A stretch of 64,000 nt of DNA from Escherichia phage vB_EcoM_DE7. Where the stretch lies: sequence record OL825705.1; one strand, given 5' to 3'. Positions 3,451-36,911 of the stretch are shown here, in pieces (the first letter of the stretch is position 1; every line of letters begins with the position of its first letter). Below the pieces are notes generated by a model. It did not search any database. It was given only the letters and a program-made list of their open reading frames with translations, and had not been told where the DNA came from. Position numbers and translations under genes: made by a program.

Positions 3451-4803
3451 ATGTGGAATCCAATTGTTAATGTAGATATTACATTGAACACCGCAGGAAC
3501 TACAAGAGAAGGTTTTGGTTTACCACTATTCTTAGCTTCAACAGATAACTTTGAAGAAAGAGTACGTGGCTACACTTCCTTAACTGAAGTTGCTGAAGAT
3601 TTCGATGAGAATACTGCTGCATATAAGGCTGCTAAACAACTTTGGAGTCAGACTCCTAAAGTAACTCAGCTTTATATTGGTAGACGTGCTATGCAGTACA
3701 CTGTATCAATTCCTGATGCCGTTACCGAAAGTACAGACTACTCGATTACTGTAGCTGCTGGCGGTGGAATTTCTCAACCATACCAGTATACAGCGCAAGA
3801 CTCAGACACTGCTGAAGTAGTGTTGCAACAGTTTAAAACACAGATTGAAGCTGACCCAACAATCAAAGATAAGGTTTCTGTGAACGTAACTGGTAGTGGT
3901 GCTTCTACCACAATGGTTATTACCAAAGCTGGTGATAATGACTTTGTGAAGGTAACAACTACAGCACAGACTGTATATATCGCAAGTACAACTGCTGATA
4001 CAGCATCAACTGCTCTGGCAGCTATTGAAGCTTATTCTACTGACTGGTATTTCATCGCAGCAGAAGACAGAACTCAACAGTTTGTCTTAGCAATGGCTTC
4101 TGAGATTCAGGCTCGTAAGAAAATCTTCTTCACTGCTAACTCTGATGTAGCAGCACTGCAAGGTACAGAATTAAACAGTGCAAATGATGTTCCAGCACAG
4201 CTTGCTAAGAACATGTACACCCGTACAGTTTGCTTGTGGCATCACACAGCAGCAGAAGACTATCCAGAGATGGCATACATTGCTTATGGTGCTCCATATG
4301 ATGCAGGGTCAATTGCTTGGGGTAATGCTCAGTTAACTGGTGTAGCTGCTTCTCTGCAGCCATCTAATCACAGACCTTTGACAAGTATTCAGAAGTCAGC
4401 TTTAGATGCACGTCACTGTAACTTTATTGACCTTGATGGTGGTGTTCCAGTGGTTCGTAGAGGGATTACTTCTGGTGGGGAATGGGTTGATATCATCCGT
4501 GGTGTTGACTGGTTAGAATCAGACCTGAAAACTTCTCTGAGAGACTTGCTAATTAACCAGAAGGGTGGTAAGATTACTTATGATGATACTGGTATTACCC
4601 GTATTCGTCAAGTCATTGAAACCTCTCTGCAAAGAGCAGTCAACAGAAACTTCCTGTCATCTTACACAGTTAATGTTCCTAAAGCCTCTCAAGTTGCTTT
4701 AGCAGACAAGAAAGCTCGTATCCTGAAAGATGTTACCTTCGCAGGTGTCTTAGCAGGTGCTATCTTGGATGTTGACTTGAAAGGTACAGTGGCTTACGAA
4801 TAA
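3451..4803 (+). CDS. tail sheath protein
   Basis: 450-aa ORF followed by a 148-aa tube-sized ORF, chaperone pair and tape measure: canonical contractile-tail gene order. Confidence 0.5.
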   Translation: MWNPIVNVDITLNTAGTTREGFGLPLFLASTDNFEERVRGYTSLTEVAEDFDENTAAYKAAKQLWSQTPKVTQLYIGRRAMQYTVSIPDAVTESTDYSITVAAGGGISQPYQYTAQDSDTAEVVLQQFKTQIEADPTIKDKVSVNVTGSGASTTMVITKAGDNDFVKVTTTAQTVYIASTTADTASTALAAIEAYSTDWYFIAAEDRTQQFVLAMASEIQARKKIFFTANSDVAALQGTELNSANDVPAQLAKNMYTRTVCLWHHTAAEDYPEMAYIAYGAPYDAGSIAWGNAQLTGVAASLQPSNHRPLTSIQKSALDARHCNFIDLDGGVPVVRRGITSGGEWVDIIRGVDWLESDLKTSLRDLLINQKGGKITYDDTGITRIRQVIETSLQRAVNRNFLSSYTVNVPKASQVALADKKARILKDVTFAGVLAGAILDVDLKGTVAYE

Positions 4804-4818
4804 TAGAGGTAAATTGGA

Positions 4819-5265
4819 ATGGCTATGTATCAGCAATATTCCCCTAAAGACGTTGTATGTAGCTGGAATGGTATTGCCATTGAAGGCTTTGCTCCAGACT
4901 CATTCTTACGTCTACAGAGAACATCACCACTTATCACACCAGTTGTTGGTGCAGGTGGTCAAGTTGCTCTGACAAGAAATGCAGACAAGACAGGTACTAT
5001 TGAGATTGAGCTAATGCAGACTTCTCTCTCTAATCAGATGCTTTCTGCAATTCAAGCTAAACAAGACAATATGGAACTTGAAGAAGATATCTCTTCTAAC
5101 TTCGTAATCTACGACCCATCAGGCTCTGTTCTGGCAACTGGTATTAACGCTTGGTTGCAGGAATTACCACAGATTGAACTTGGTCGTGACCAGAACTCTA
5201 AAACTTGGATTTTTGGTTGTGAGAAGCTAGACTACACTTCTACAATTCCAGCGTCAAGTGTTTAA
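4819..5265 (+). CDS. tail tube protein
   Basis: 148-aa ORF between sheath and chaperone genes; strong terminator after it. Confidence 0.5.
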   Translation: MAMYQQYSPKDVVCSWNGIAIEGFAPDSFLRLQRTSPLITPVVGAGGQVALTRNADKTGTIEIELMQTSLSNQMLSAIQAKQDNMELEEDISSNFVIYDPSGSVLATGINAWLQELPQIELGRDQNSKTWIFGCEKLDYTSTIPASSV

Positions 5266-5276
5266 TATATCCTATA

Positions 5277-5309
5277 AGGGGGAGACTTTAAAAGGTCTTC
5301 CCCTTTTTT
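5277..5309 (+). terminator. rho-independent terminator
   Basis: GGGGGAGAC/GTCTTCCCC stem followed by TTTTTT directly after tail tube gene. Confidence 0.6.
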
Positions 5310-5338
5310 GTTTCTTTTAAAAGTATTAAGGAATCACA

Positions 5339-5737
5339 ATGAAAACAGAATCTAGAGTAATTAATGGCAAGAAAGTAAATATCATTCTGCTTGGGGCAAG
5401 AGATGGTATTAAGATGTCTATGAAGTTGGGTAAAATTGTTGTTCCAACTTTTGCACAGATGCTATCAAGTCTGACTGATAAAGATAAGAAAGAAGCTCCA
5501 ATGGTTCCATTTAAAGAACTTGTTGAAGCTTGTTTTGACAGAATTGAAGAAATTAACCTTGAAGAAATGGCTACCCTATTATTTCAAGGGGCAACTGTTG
5601 ATGACTTCCCACTTAATATTGATACATACTTCCAAGCAAACTATGGTGAATTTATTGATTACTTAGCATTTGCGCTGGAGGCAAATTTCGGAAGTTTTTT
5701 CGAAGCAAGCATTTTCAAAAGCCTAACTTCTCAGTAA
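5339..5737 (+). CDS. tail assembly chaperone (G-like)
   Basis: 132-aa ORF directly upstream of tape measure; contains slippery T TTT TTC near its 3' end. Confidence 0.5.
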   Translation: MKTESRVINGKKVNIILLGARDGIKMSMKLGKIVVPTFAQMLSSLTDKDKKEAPMVPFKELVEACFDRIEEINLEEMATLLFQGATVDDFPLNIDTYFQANYGEFIDYLAFALEANFGSFFEASIFKSLTSQ

Positions 5738-5739
5738 AC

Positions 5740-5978
5740 ATGGGTAACACTCTACAGACACCACTAACTGATGCTGCTGTAGAGGCAACCTATGAAGAAG
5801 CAGACGAGATGAAATTTGTGCTTGCTATTTATGGTATGGAAGGGTGTAAAGAAACACTTGACCAACTCTTTGCTATGACATTCTCTGATTTATTATCATT
5901 GAGACAATTCCTTGAAATTCAGAGGTCGTATAAAGAGGAAATTGCTTACAACGAACTTAGAAGAGCAGGAAAAATGTA

Positions 5979-5979
<1 letters not shown>
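5740..5979 (+). CDS. tail assembly chaperone -1 frameshift extension (GT-like, probably expressed as fusion with 5339..5737)
   Basis: ORF in -1 frame relative to upstream chaperone; -1 frame open from 5659; heptamer T TTT TTC at 5695-5701. Confidence 0.4.
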
Positions 5980-14013
<8,034 letters not shown>

Positions 14014-33747: not shown

Positions 33748-34788
33748 ATGGAGAAGTATACACTAACAAAACTTCCCGATTCAGTTACACATGTCTTTAT
33801 TGACTCTGACAGTATTGCCTATAAAGGTGCTTGTGTAGTTGAGAAAGCAAAATATAAGTATGTCAATAAACTCACAGCAGAAGAATCTGAACCATTTGAT
33901 AATGCAAAAGATGCTGCAAGATGGTTAGCAGACCAGAGAATCTTTGTAGAAGAGCTTGGCCTAGCATTTGATGAAGATGAATGGGAAAGACAGACTTGGA
34001 AAGAAGCTAAGAGTGAAAAAGAAGCTATCATGGCTACTCAGCAGGTTCTTCAGGAATGGCTTAAGGTTGTTGGTAAAGAAAGAACTTGGGTAGGTTACTT
34101 GACAGAGAAGGGTGTACATAAACATAAAGACATTAAAGGTCTTGAACACCAATATCAAGGTAACCGTAAAGATGCTGTCACACCAACACACTTAGTTGCT
34201 TGTCGTGAATATCTTTTATCCAGACCAGAGTTCAAATTGATTCTTGATGGATTTGAAGCTGACTCTATCGTTATTGCTAAAGCTGAAAAGATGGGAAAAA
34301 AGGCTGCCTTAATGAGTATTGATAAAGACCTTCGCCAAGCTGAAGGTACTTACTGCATTGATATGACCTATGAAAAATCACCTTTAATTTTCATTGCTGA
34401 TAACAACGTTGGTGAAATTTGGGATTGTCCAATAAAATCGACACCAAAAGCTAAGAAGACAGTTGGTGTAGGTTTTAAATTTCTTTGTTATCAAGCTGTG
34501 GCTGGTGATAATGCGGATAATTACTTTGGTTTAAAGGGTGTTGGCAAAGCTGCTGTGATGAAGGCTCTTGAGGGGAAAACAACTTACAAAGAGTGTCTTG
34601 ATGCAATTTACGAGCTATATGCTAAGAAAGACTCCTATACTTATGTATCATGGGATGGTCAAACAATTACCAGAACACCTTTAGAATTAATGCAGCAACA
34701 CTTTTTCTTAGCTTATCAGGAAAGAAATAAGAAAGATGATTTTACTTTTAAGAAATATAATTGGGAGCCATGTATGAATGAAGATTAA
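33748..34788 (+). CDS. 5'-3' exonuclease / flap endonuclease (FEN family)
   Basis: H3TH-like motif GDNADNYFGLKGVGKAAVMKAL and N-terminal acidic catalytic region (VFIDSDS). Confidence 0.8.
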   Translation: MEKYTLTKLPDSVTHVFIDSDSIAYKGACVVEKAKYKYVNKLTAEESEPFDNAKDAARWLADQRIFVEELGLAFDEDEWERQTWKEAKSEKEAIMATQQVLQEWLKVVGKERTWVGYLTEKGVHKHKDIKGLEHQYQGNRKDAVTPTHLVACREYLLSRPEFKLILDGFEADSIVIAKAEKMGKKAALMSIDKDLRQAEGTYCIDMTYEKSPLIFIADNNVGEIWDCPIKSTPKAKKTVGVGFKFLCYQAVAGDNADNYFGLKGVGKAAVMKALEGKTTYKECLDAIYELYAKKDSYTYVSWDGQTITRTPLELMQQHFFLAYQERNKKDDFTFKKYNWEPCMNED

Positions 34789-35275
34789 AGGATTTGGCAA
34801 TTGCCCTACCTATGGTCATTGGGTATCTTTATGTGGGGAAGTTGACCCCACTAAACATTTTGGATTTGTCTATTTAGTACACTGTAAGAAGACTGGACAA
34901 TATTATATAGGAAAAAAACAGTTTAACAGTGTTACCAAAAGAAAAGTTGCTGGGAAGACTCGGAAGAAGATAGTCACTAAGGAAAGTGATTGGATGACTT
35001 ATGAGACTTCTTCTGAGTATATTAAAAAAGATATTGAGAGCTTTGGAAAAGAATTTTTTGACTTTTACATTATCCAAACCTACTACACGAAAGGTGGTCT
35101 AGTTTATGGTGAAGCAAACCTTCAACATAAATTCGATGTAATGACAAAAAGGATTGACTCTAAGCTCAGACTCTTCTACAATGCCAATATTGCAGCAATT
35201 AAGTTTATCACTAAAGAAACTTATGAAGATGCTGAAAAAAGAATCCATAAGGTAATGAAAGCGAATTGTGCTTGA
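34778..35275 (+). CDS. GIY-YIG homing endonuclease
   Basis: N-terminal GFVYLVHCKKTGQYYIGKK GIY-(10)-YIG motif. Confidence 0.7.
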   Translation: MKIKGFGNCPTYGHWVSLCGEVDPTKHFGFVYLVHCKKTGQYYIGKKQFNSVTKRKVAGKTRKKIVTKESDWMTYETSSEYIKKDIESFGKEFFDFYIIQTYYTKGGLVYGEANLQHKFDVMTKRIDSKLRLFYNANIAAIKFITKETYEDAEKRIHKVMKANCA

Positions 35276-36580: not shown

Positions 36581-36911
36581 AGCAAAAAAGTTATCTTATG
36601 ATGACATTGTCTCAGGTGCTAAGTTAGGTGTGGACAGTATCTGGCAAGACGTTAAGCACGGAGACACAGTTATGTACTGTGATGACCGAAGAGGAAGAAG
36701 TGCAATCTTGTTTGGAAGAATTGTTTGCAAGATACGAGGTAATTACGTTGTTGCAGACATGGATGTGAACGTTACACAAAAACTTGAAACAATTATGGAT
36801 GCTAGTGCACCATTATGGTTCTCCCTGAATTGTATGCACACTTCTTCAGTCACAAAAGTAAGTGATAAGTTTTACGATATGTGGCAGAATGAGCAAATTT
36901 TCAAGATTTAA
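36573..36911 (+). CDS. hypothetical protein
   Basis: 112-aa ORF followed by strong terminator. Confidence 0.35.
   Translation: MSKAKKLSYDDIVSGAKLGVDSIWQDVKHGDTVMYCDDRRGRSAILFGRIVCKIRGNYVVADMDVNVTQKLETIMDASAPLWFSLNCMHTSSVTKVSDKFYDMWQNEQIFKI

What the first reader, a model, noticed from the sequence alone, without database searches (positions are those of the whole stretch)
5695..5701. Programmed -1 frameshift site in the tail assembly chaperone pair
The heptamer T TTT TTC lies in the zero frame near the 3' end of the 5339..5737 ORF. The -1 frame is open from 5659 through the downstream 5740..5979 ORF, which would therefore be made as a C-terminal extension (G/GT-type), as conserved in long-tailed phages upstream of the tape measure gene.
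Basis: partly seen in the sequence, partly recalled or inferred. Interest (0 to 1): 0.4.

Follow-up and report, generated by a model that had tools for sequence, protein, structure and literature searches.

The report
Tail chaperone -1 frameshift site, Felix O1-like phage
The T TTT TTC site is real and almost certainly makes ribosomes slip back one base to fuse the two small tail-chaperone reading frames of this Felix O1-like phage, but the same fusion is already annotated in near-identical phages, so it is ordinary.

Summary
T_TTT_TTC lies at 5695-5701 in the zero frame of ORF 5339-5737. The -1 frame is open from 5659 to 5979. A slip there adds 92 codons and gives a 213-aa fusion.

The window is a Felixounavirus, a Felix O1-like contractile-tailed phage. 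The gene order is sheath, tube, chaperone (Pfam PF21822), small -1 ORF, tape measure.

Comparative evidence for programmed -1 ribosomal frameshifting is strong:
- The T6 run is invariant in 45 of 46 related loci, down to 27-31% protein identity.
- Erwinia phages match the window's DNA only over the 41 bases around the site.
- The extension after the slip is 91-98 aa in every lineage checked.
- Four lineages have no start codon in the first 44-60 codons of the extension.
- The ATG at 5740 is the only one of 18 neighbouring starts without a Shine-Dalgarno match.

No downstream stimulatory structure was found. A GGAGG lies 13 nt upstream and may stimulate the slip.

The fusion predicted from this heptamer is already deposited for phages Mushroom, Michonne and Maleficent. 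Genome announcements for Moogle and Mijalis mention the frameshift. I found no experimental proof in this lineage. Already known; low interest.

The parts
5339..5737 (+). Zero-frame tail assembly chaperone gene ('G'-equivalent), 132 aa
   Evidence: Pfam PF21822 Phage_TAC_15, 70.9 bits against a cut-off of 22. phrog_1613 tail assembly chaperone, E 7e-49. Has a Shine-Dalgarno match of -6.1 kcal/mol.
5677..5681 (+). Internal Shine-Dalgarno-like GGAGG, 13 nt upstream of the heptamer; candidate dnaX-style stimulator (inferred)
   Evidence: Duplex with the 16S 3' end is -9.3 kcal/mol, and fewer than 1% of 16-nt coding windows reach -8. A pairing of -6.4 kcal/mol or stronger lies 10-13 nt upstream in Felixounavirus, Mooglevirus, Suspvirus, L041, L042 and L045. 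It is absent in Kolesnikvirus, Yersinia P778 and L044.
5683..5689 (+). Second in-phase heptamer A_AAT_TTC leading into the same -1 frame; not conserved
   Evidence: It reads AAC TTC in most Felixounavirus and in Mooglevirus. In Yersinia P778 and L042/L043 the -1 frame is still closed at this position.
5695..5701 (+). Slippery heptamer T_TTT_TTC, the proposed -1 shift site
   Evidence: In phase. The only in-frame T_TTT_TTY in the window. The T6 run is invariant in 45 of 46 loci and 25 unique segments. In P778 and L042/L043 a -1 stop lies one codon before it, which pins the site.
5701..5979 (+). -1 frame extension read after the slip ('T' part): 92 codons plus stop; the stop overlaps the tape-measure ATG
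   Evidence: The extension is 91-98 aa in all ten lineages checked. It is 51% identical to the Kolesnikvirus extension, E 3e-30.
5339..5979 (+). Span of the predicted 213-aa frameshift fusion ('GT'-equivalent): 5339-5701 joined to 5701-5979
   Evidence: The sequence was computed. The same construction for phage Mushroom equals AJF40599.1/YP_009600435.1 exactly. For Maleficent it equals AYR00813.1/AKU44019.1 exactly. Both records carry joined CDS features.
5740..5979 (+). Stand-alone 79-aa ORF as usually annotated; probably not translated independently
   Evidence: phrog_4963. Its ATG has no Shine-Dalgarno match (+0.7 kcal/mol, against -5.1 to -12.6 for the 17 neighbouring starts). The ATG is absent in Kolesnikvirus, P778, L041, L042, L044 and L045.
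5979..8225 (+). Tape measure protein gene (context)
   Evidence: phrog_4036, full length. Pfam PF20155 TMP_3.
4819..5265 (+). Tail tube gene (context)
   Evidence: phrog_280. Pfam PF11681 KPP10_Orf10. Annotated as tail tube in phage Harbringer.
3451..4803 (+). Tail sheath gene (context; shows the tail is contractile)
   Evidence: phrog_205 tail sheath, E 6e-123.

Best explanation
This is a programmed -1 ribosomal frameshift site in the tail assembly chaperone gene of a Felix O1-like myovirus.

Most ribosomes read 5339-5737 to its stop and make the 132-aa chaperone. A minority slip when tRNA-Phe occupies both the P site (UUU, 5696-5698) and the A site (UUC, 5699-5701). Both tRNAs move back one base and re-pair with UUU and UUU. 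Reading then resumes at CGA (5701) in the -1 frame for 92 more codons, up to the stop at 5977-5979. The product is a 213-aa fusion, ...ANFGSFF-RSKHFQKP..., that shares its first 121 residues with the short protein.

By analogy with lambda G/GT and P2 E/E+E', the shared N-terminal part would coat the tape measure protein. The C-terminal extension would recruit tube subunits. The low slip frequency would fix the ratio of the two products.

Shown here: the anatomy, the phase, the conservation, the absence of independent initiation signals, and the family membership of the chaperone. Inferred: that the slip occurs, how often it occurs, the roles of the two products, and any stimulation by the GGAGG 13 nt upstream.
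For: - Phase and open -1 frame.
- Gene order of sheath, tube, PF21822 chaperone, -1 ORF, tape measure.
- This is the only in-frame T_TTT_TTY among about 18,154 codons in the window.
- The T6 run is invariant in 45 of 46 loci, including uncultured relatives at 27-31% identity that carry T_TTT_TTT. All six diverged members tested also belong to PF21822.
- Erwinia Kolesnikvirus phages, 42% identical in the chaperone protein, match the window's DNA only at 5684-5724, at 90% identity.
- In Yersinia P778 and in L042/L043 the -1 frame opens one codon before the heptamer.
- The extension is 91-98 aa in all ten lineages checked. In Kolesnikvirus, L042, L044 and L045 the first 44-60 codons of the extension hold no ATG, GTG or TTG.
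- The Kolesnikvirus extension is 51% identical to the window's, E 3e-30.
- The ATG at 5740 has no Shine-Dalgarno match, unlike the 17 neighbouring gene starts.
- Fusions built from a slip at this heptamer equal the deposited proteins of Mushroom and of Maleficent/Michonne.
- Genome announcements for Moogle and Mijalis mention the frameshift.
- In E. coli, U_UU.U_UU.C shifts at more than 0.1% without a stimulator. H_HH.U_UU.Y motifs are among the most efficient, and this motif is used by IS elements (PMC4066793).
- P2 uses TTTTTTG without any downstream structure (PMC3091744).
Against: - I found no experimental evidence for the fusion in any Felix O1-like phage. All deposited fusions are predictions.
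- There is no stimulatory structure within 44 nt downstream: MFE -2.5 kcal/mol, z +1.1. Nothing in Rfam comes near a gathering score.
- The upstream GGAGG is missing in three of the eight lineage groups compared.
- The nucleotide conservation around the site could follow from double coding (SFFEASIFK in one frame, FFRSKHFQKP in the other) rather than from a signal.
- In Mooglevirus the downstream ORF has an ATG with a fair Shine-Dalgarno match of -7.2 kcal/mol, so independent translation may also occur there.
- High-GC family members (L046/L079, L082) lack a canonical heptamer at this position.
Confidence: 0.88

Rival explanations
1. There is no recoding. The two ORFs are separate genes, and the 79-aa protein is translated from its own ATG at 5740, perhaps by re-initiation after the stop at 5735-5737. 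The heptamer is then just the codons for a conserved Ser-Phe-Phe motif.
For: - Most GenBank records annotate two separate CDS.
- The ATG lies 2 nt after the upstream stop, so termination-reinitiation is conceivable.
- Mooglevirus has an ATG with a Shine-Dalgarno match of -7.2 kcal/mol.
- The S-F-F motif is conserved at the protein level.
Against: - The ATG at 5740 has no Shine-Dalgarno match: +0.7 kcal/mol, against -5.1 to -12.6 for the 17 neighbouring starts.
- Kolesnikvirus, L042, L044 and L045 keep a homologous or equal-length -1 extension with no start codon in its first 44-60 codons.
- The -1 peptide FFRSKHFQKP, upstream of the ATG, is conserved.
- The codon choice is always NNT TTT TTY, although TTC makes up 43% of Phe codons and Ser codons ending in T only about 55%.
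Confidence: 0.04
2. The fusion is made, but by transcriptional slippage. RNA polymerase adds one extra U in the T6 run, giving a share of mRNAs in which the two frames are fused.
For: - The conserved element is a homopolymer run, invariant T6.
- There is no RNA structure to stimulate ribosomal shifting.
- The protein product would be identical, because any extra base within the run gives the same ...SFFRSK... junction.
Against: - From general knowledge, not tested here: efficient polymerase slippage in bacteria needs runs of about eight or nine or more.
- Here the run is only six in the Ounavirinae and seven in the distant relatives, and no lineage has lengthened it.
- The run is always in the X_XXY_YYZ phase, although the conserved S-F-F motif would also hold that phase.
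- The P2 case with TTTTTTG is described in the paper read here as a translational frameshift.
Confidence: 0.05
3. In this particular phage the shift occurs mainly at the upstream heptamer A_AAT_TTC (5683-5689), giving ...ANF-RKFFRSK... instead of ...ANFGSFF-RSK....
For: - It is in phase and leads into the same open -1 frame.
- R_RR.U_UU.Y motifs are listed as efficient exceptions in E. coli.
Against: - It reads AAC TTC in most Felixounavirus and in Mooglevirus, Kolesnikvirus and P778.
- In P778 and L042/L043 the -1 frame is closed at that position.
- The GGAGG ends only 1 nt before it, which by general knowledge is too close to stimulate a -1 shift.
Confidence: 0.03

Closest known systems
Annotated tape measure chaperone frameshift of Felix O1-like phages Mushroom (AJF40599.1), Moogle, Michonne, Mordin, Maleficent and Mijalis
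   Same: Same gene, same heptamer and same junction. The 213-aa fusion built for Mushroom and the 212-aa fusion built for Maleficent from a slip at AGT TTT TTC equal the deposited proteins exactly. The DNA is 97% identical (Mushroom) and about 80% identical (Mooglevirus) to the window.
   Different: The window's own fusion sequence is not in the protein collection. Most Felixounavirus records, RefSeq entries included, annotate two separate ORFs. All of these are predictions, not measurements.
Bacteriophage P2 E / E+E' (Christie et al. 2002, as summarised in PMC3091744)
   Same: A contractile-tailed phage. The small ORF pair lies between the tail tube and tape measure genes. The -1 shift occurs on a T6 run (TTTTTTG) with no downstream secondary structure.
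   Different: No sequence relationship was detected. Pfam gives only PF21822 for this chaperone. The seventh base is C rather than G. The products are 132 and 213 aa, against 91 and 142 aa in P2.
Bacteriophage lambda G / GT (Levin, Hendrix, Casjens 1993; Xu, Hendrix, Duda 2004, 2013, 2014, as summarised in PMC5009743)
   Same: The same logic: a chaperone and a frameshift-extended chaperone made in a fixed low ratio, encoded just upstream of the tape measure gene, with neither product present in virions.
   Different: Lambda has a non-contractile tail and slips on G_GGA_AAG. The proteins belong to different families. The ratio and the binding partners are known for lambda and only inferred here.
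E. coli dnaX -1 frameshift signal
   Same: A Shine-Dalgarno-like element lies upstream of the heptamer. Here it is GGAGG, 13 nt upstream, pairing at -9.3 kcal/mol. From my own knowledge, the stimulatory spacing for a -1 shift is about 10-14 nt.
   Different: dnaX also has a strong downstream stem-loop and slips on A_AAA_AAG. Here there is no downstream structure, and the upstream element is missing in three lineages.

Membership tests
Tail assembly chaperone G/GT-type programmed -1 frameshift (Xu, Hendrix, Duda 2004) | A pair of small ORFs lies between the major tail (tube) gene and the tape measure gene | tested here: met
   Tube 4819-5265, ORFs 5339-5737 and 5740-5979, tape measure 5979-8225.
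Tail assembly chaperone G/GT-type programmed -1 frameshift (Xu, Hendrix, Duda 2004) | The second ORF is in the -1 frame and overlaps the 3' end of the first | tested here: met
   The -1 frame is open from 5659 to 5979, a 79-nt overlap.
Tail assembly chaperone G/GT-type programmed -1 frameshift (Xu, Hendrix, Duda 2004) | A slippery heptamer X_XXY_YYZ lies in zero-frame phase inside the overlap | tested here: met
   T_TTT_TTC at 5695-5701. It is the only such in-frame motif in the window.
Tail assembly chaperone G/GT-type programmed -1 frameshift (Xu, Hendrix, Duda 2004) | The slip site and frame arrangement are conserved in diverged relatives | tested here: met
   45 of 46 loci keep them, down to 27-31% protein identity, and the extension is 91-98 aa. 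High-GC relatives L046/L079 and L082 lack the heptamer.
Tail assembly chaperone G/GT-type programmed -1 frameshift (Xu, Hendrix, Duda 2004) | The downstream part lacks its own translation start signals | tested here: met
   ATG 5740 has no Shine-Dalgarno match, +0.7 kcal/mol. Four lineages have no start codon in the first 44-60 codons of the extension. Mooglevirus is an exception, with a fair Shine-Dalgarno match.
Tail assembly chaperone G/GT-type programmed -1 frameshift (Xu, Hendrix, Duda 2004) | The fusion protein is made at a low, fixed fraction of the short product | not testable with these tools
   Needs protein analysis or a reporter assay.
Tail assembly chaperone G/GT-type programmed -1 frameshift (Xu, Hendrix, Duda 2004) | Both products are needed for tail assembly and are absent from virions | not testable with these tools
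   Needs genetics and virion proteomics.
Pfam PF21822 Phage_TAC_15 | The sequence matches the family profile above the curated cut-off | tested here: met
   70.9 bits against a cut-off of 22, covering residues 9-124. Six diverged relatives score 55.9-74.9 bits.
P2 gpE / E+E' protein family | Sequence homology to P2 gpE | tested here: not met
   A Pfam scan at E up to 0.1 returns PF21822 and one chance-level hit (POU2AF2), and no P2 gpE family. The resemblance lies in mechanism and gene position only.
dnaX-type stimulated -1 frameshift | A Shine-Dalgarno-like element lies about 10-14 nt upstream of the heptamer | tested here: inconclusive
   Present in the window at -9.3 kcal/mol, 12-13 nt upstream. 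Absent in Kolesnikvirus, P778 and L044.
dnaX-type stimulated -1 frameshift | A stable stem-loop or pseudoknot lies 5-9 nt downstream | tested here: not met
   The 44 nt after the heptamer fold at -2.5 kcal/mol, z +1.1. The consensus fold finds nothing before column 50.
Transcriptional slippage sites | A homopolymer run long enough for frequent polymerase slippage (about 8-9 or more, from general knowledge) | tested here: not met
   The run is T6 here and T7 in distant relatives, never longer.

The most novel reading that the evidence does not exclude
The slip site may be an old, hard-wired feature of one branch of the PF21822 chaperone family. The T6 run is built into the conserved NFxSFF motif and has been kept down to about 27% protein identity. 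It may be stimulated by an upstream Shine-Dalgarno-like GGAGG/GGGAG, as in dnaX, rather than by a downstream RNA structure. In this isolate the extra A_AAT_TTC heptamer would add a second fusion isoform differing by two residues.
Probability: 0.3. Interest if true: 0.25.

Novelty: already known. Interest (0 to 1): 0.12.

Why it matters
The main value is for annotation. Most of the roughly 250 Felixounavirus records, RefSeq entries included, list two separate 'tail assembly chaperone' ORFs. The comparative evidence says the second exists only as the C-terminal part of a 213-aa fusion. PHROG 4963 appears to be built around that fragment.

The finding adds nothing new about the mechanism. It is a further case of the conserved tail-chaperone frameshift, on a motif already known to be slippery in E. 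coli. The upstream GGAGG and the absence of a downstream structure make a small, easily tested question about how weak frameshift signals are tuned.

Tried and rejected
- **Downstream stimulator.** I folded 5695-5800 and 5702-5745 and made a six-genus consensus fold. Nothing forms within 44 nt. The hairpin at 5739-5794 lies too far downstream for the usual 5-9 nt spacing and shows weak covariation (consensus -2.8 kcal/mol).
- **Rfam.** A permissive scan of 5200-6100 gave only sub-threshold hits, mostly on the terminator hairpin at 5276-5305.
- **PDB sequence search.** The fusion protein has no relative with a solved structure; the best E-value was 0.63.
- **Homology of the extension to the distant uncultured group.** BLASTP was not significant, E 0.23. 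For those lineages only position, frame and length support equivalence.
- **Wider sampling.** A second viral-contig scan with a broader alignment added only L082.
- **A_AAT_TTC at 5683-5689 as the main site.** Rejected because it is not conserved.
- **First literature look-up.** The search for the motif string in PMC4066793 failed on notation. A second search found the relevant passages.

Full report
**What the window is.** The region 4800-6400 matches 258 phage records. Of these, 211 are 95-99% identical, and nearly all are Felixounavirus isolates of Escherichia, Salmonella, Shigella and Citrobacter. The local gene order on the + strand is:
- tail sheath, 3451-4803 (phrog_205);
- tail tube, 4819-5265 (phrog_280, PF11681);
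- a 132-aa tail assembly chaperone, 5339-5737 (PF21822 Phage_TAC_15, 70.9 bits against a cut-off of 22; phrog_1613);
- a 79-aa ORF, 5740-5979 (phrog_4963);
- the tape measure protein, 5979-8225 (phrog_4036, PF20155).

The phage is therefore a contractile-tailed, Felix O1-like myovirus.

**The observation.** Bases 5695-5701 are TTTTTTC. The codons of ORF 5339-5737 fall as AGT|TTT|TTC, so the heptamer is in X_XXY_YYZ phase. ORF 5740-5979 is in the -1 frame. That frame is open from 5659, which gives a 79-nt overlap. After a -1 slip the ribosome would read CGA at 5701 and continue for 92 codons to the stop at 5977-5979. That stop overlaps the tape-measure ATG. The product is a 213-aa fusion...ALEANFGSFF-RSKHFQKPNFSVNMGNT....

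**Chance.** I examined 75 gene-like ORFs in the window, about 18,154 codon positions.
- There are 71 in-phase canonical heptamers of any kind, so about 10% of 26-codon stretches would hold one.
- T_TTT_TTY occurs exactly once, at this site, which corresponds to about 0.14% for such a stretch.
- Runs of six or more T are scarce on the coding strand, 13 against 50 runs of A.
- The other very slippery in-phase heptamers I checked (A_AAA_AAG at 6266, 34296 and 36584; A_AAA_AAA at 34912) meet a -1 stop after 2-6 codons. This one opens 92 codons.

**Comparative evidence.** I compared the site in the following groups:
- Felixounavirus;
- Mooglevirus (Maleficent, Sf16);
- Suspvirus (mistaenkt);
- Kolesnikvirus (Erwinia phiEa21-4, Harbringer);
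- Yersinia phage P778;
- uncultured viral contigs whose chaperones are only 27-31% identical.

The findings were as follows.
- The T6 run is present in 45 of 46 loci and is invariant across 25 unique anchored segments. It reads T_TTT_TTC in the Ounavirinae and P778, and T_TTT_TTT in the distant group.
- All six diverged chaperones tested are PF21822 members. The run sits in the family's conserved C-terminal NFxSFF motif.
- A blastn search with the 641-nt gene pair matched the Erwinia phages only at window 5684-5724, at 90% identity, although their chaperones are only 42% identical in protein.
- In P778 and in L042/L043 a -1 frame stop lies one codon before the heptamer. The shift therefore cannot occur further upstream.
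- The -1 extension after the slip is 91-98 aa in all ten lineages checked.
- In Kolesnikvirus, L042, L044 and L045 there is no ATG, GTG or TTG in the first 44-60 codons of that extension.
- The Kolesnikvirus extension is nevertheless 51% identical to the window's (E 3e-30).
- The peptide FFRSKHFQKP, which lies upstream of the window's ATG at 5740, is conserved across the Ounavirinae.

In those lineages the downstream domain can only be made as an extension of the chaperone.

**Independent initiation in the window.** I looked at 18 consecutive + strand starts. The ATG at 5740 is the only one with no Shine-Dalgarno pairing, +0.7 kcal/mol against -5.1 to -12.6 for the rest. Mooglevirus does have an ATG with a fair match of -7.2 kcal/mol. 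Some independent translation there cannot be excluded.

**Stimulators.**
- The 44 nt after the heptamer fold at only -2.5 kcal/mol (z +1.1). A consensus fold over six genera puts no pairs before column 50.
- A hairpin at 5739-5794 (z -2.4) covers the ATG at 5740. It lies 44 nt downstream and is poorly supported by covariation.
- Rfam gives nothing near any gathering score.
- Upstream, GGAGG at 5677-5681 pairs with the 16S 3' end at -9.3 kcal/mol and ends 13 nt before the heptamer. Fewer than 1% of coding 16-nt windows reach -8.
- Comparable elements lie 10-13 nt upstream in Mooglevirus, Suspvirus, L041, L042 and L045, but not in Kolesnikvirus, P778 or L044.
- The element uses CTG and GAG, both minority codons in this 39% G+C genome.
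- I treat it as a candidate dnaX-style stimulator. This is an inference and has not been shown.

The absence of a downstream structure is not an objection. P2 E/E+E' shifts on TTTTTTG without one (PMC3091744). In E. coli, U_UU.U_UU.C and U_UU.U_UU.U shift at more than 0.1% without stimulators and belong to the efficient H_HH.U_UU.Y class. The motif is also used by IS elements (PMC4066793).

**Second heptamer.** In this isolate A_AAT_TTC at 5683-5689 is also in phase and leads into the same frame. It would give ...ANF-RKFFRSK.... It reads AAC in most relatives, and the frame is closed there in two lineages. At most it is a minor, isolate-specific contributor.

**Prior knowledge.**
- Salmonella phage Mushroom (97% identical) and Citrobacter phage Maleficent carry joined CDS features over this gene pair.
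- The fusions I built from a slip at the heptamer are exact matches to AJF40599.1/YP_009600435.1 (Mushroom). They also match AYR00813.1/AKU44019.1 (Maleficent/Michonne).
- Moogle has a 212-aa entry in the same cluster.
- The genome announcements for Moogle and Mijalis state that the tape measure chaperone has a translational frameshift, and the Mijalis one cites Xu et al. 2004.
- Most other records, RefSeq among them, list two separate ORFs. The window's own fusion is not in the protein collection.
- My literature searches found no experimental test in this lineage.

**Rivals.**
- *Separate translation of the 79-aa ORF.* This is contradicted by the missing start codons in relatives and the missing Shine-Dalgarno match.
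- *Transcriptional slippage on the T6 run.* It would give the same protein and cannot be excluded from sequence alone. From general knowledge the run is short for that mechanism, and it is never lengthened beyond seven in any lineage.
- *Shifting at the upstream heptamer.* This is unlikely because that heptamer is not conserved.

**Verdict.** The most likely mechanism is simultaneous slippage of two tRNA-Phe on U_UUU_UUC, giving a low fixed fraction of a 213-aa chaperone fusion. This works like P2 E/E+E' and lambda G/GT. It is an already annotated instance of a well-known kind, of low interest except as a correction to the many records that split the gene.

Noticed in passing
window 5683-5689: A second in-phase slippery heptamer, A_AAT_TTC, lies 12 nt upstream of the flagged one and leads into the same -1 frame. 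It would give a fusion differing by two residues (RK instead of GS). It is polymorphic (AAT or AAC) among Felixounavirus isolates.
   Followed up: yes
window 5276-5305: A strong terminator-like hairpin (13-pair stem, then TTTTGTTT) lies between the tail tube gene and the chaperone gene. It could lower transcription of the chaperone and tape measure genes relative to sheath and tube. The weak Rfam hits at 5243-5313 are on this hairpin.
   Followed up: partly
window 5739-5794: A hairpin (whole 106-nt fold -24.7 kcal/mol, z -2.4) pairs the ATG at 5740 with 5788-5794 and might mask that start codon. The six-genus consensus fold gives only weak support, with 4 of 14 pairs showing double changes and a consensus energy of -2.8.
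   Followed up: partly
window 6266-6272, 34296-34302, 36584-36590 and 34912-34918: Three in-phase A_AAA_AAG heptamers and one A_AAA_AAA lie inside other genes, including the tape measure gene. In each case the -1 frame stops after 2-6 codons, so any slip would only truncate the protein.
   Followed up: partly
whole window, + strand: There is a marked asymmetry of homopolymer runs: 50 runs of six or more A but only 13 of six or more T on the strand that carries 62 of the 75 gene-like ORFs.
   Followed up: no
GenBank GU169904.1 (74360-75000), MG065664.1 (14792-16392), protein WP_252560994.1: Records named 'Staphylococcus phage SA1', 'Campylobacter phage A132' and a 'Staphylococcus hyicus' protein carry this Felixounavirus sequence at 97-98% identity. 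They look like contaminated or mislabelled entries.
   Followed up: no
L046/L079 (about 1530-1545) and L082 (about 1290-1330): High-GC members of PF21822 keep a long open -1 frame (247-499 nt overlap, 56-70 aa beyond the stop) but have no canonical heptamer at the homologous position. L046 has only CTT TTT. Their shift site, if any, is unknown.
   Followed up: partly
L041 1855-1880; L042 1861-1890: In two distant relatives a small hairpin (-9.7 and -10.2 kcal/mol, z about -2.2 to -2.5) starts 1-4 nt after T_TTT_TTT. The Ounavirinae have nothing comparable.
   Followed up: no
LR597663.1 (43159-43799); protein cluster member P0003: Some records label these genes inconsistently. One has 'head closure / tail completion / tail sheath' under the chaperone pair in VpaE1_ev78. 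Another has 'head closure protein' for the 79-aa ORF in phage SUT_S820.
   Followed up: no
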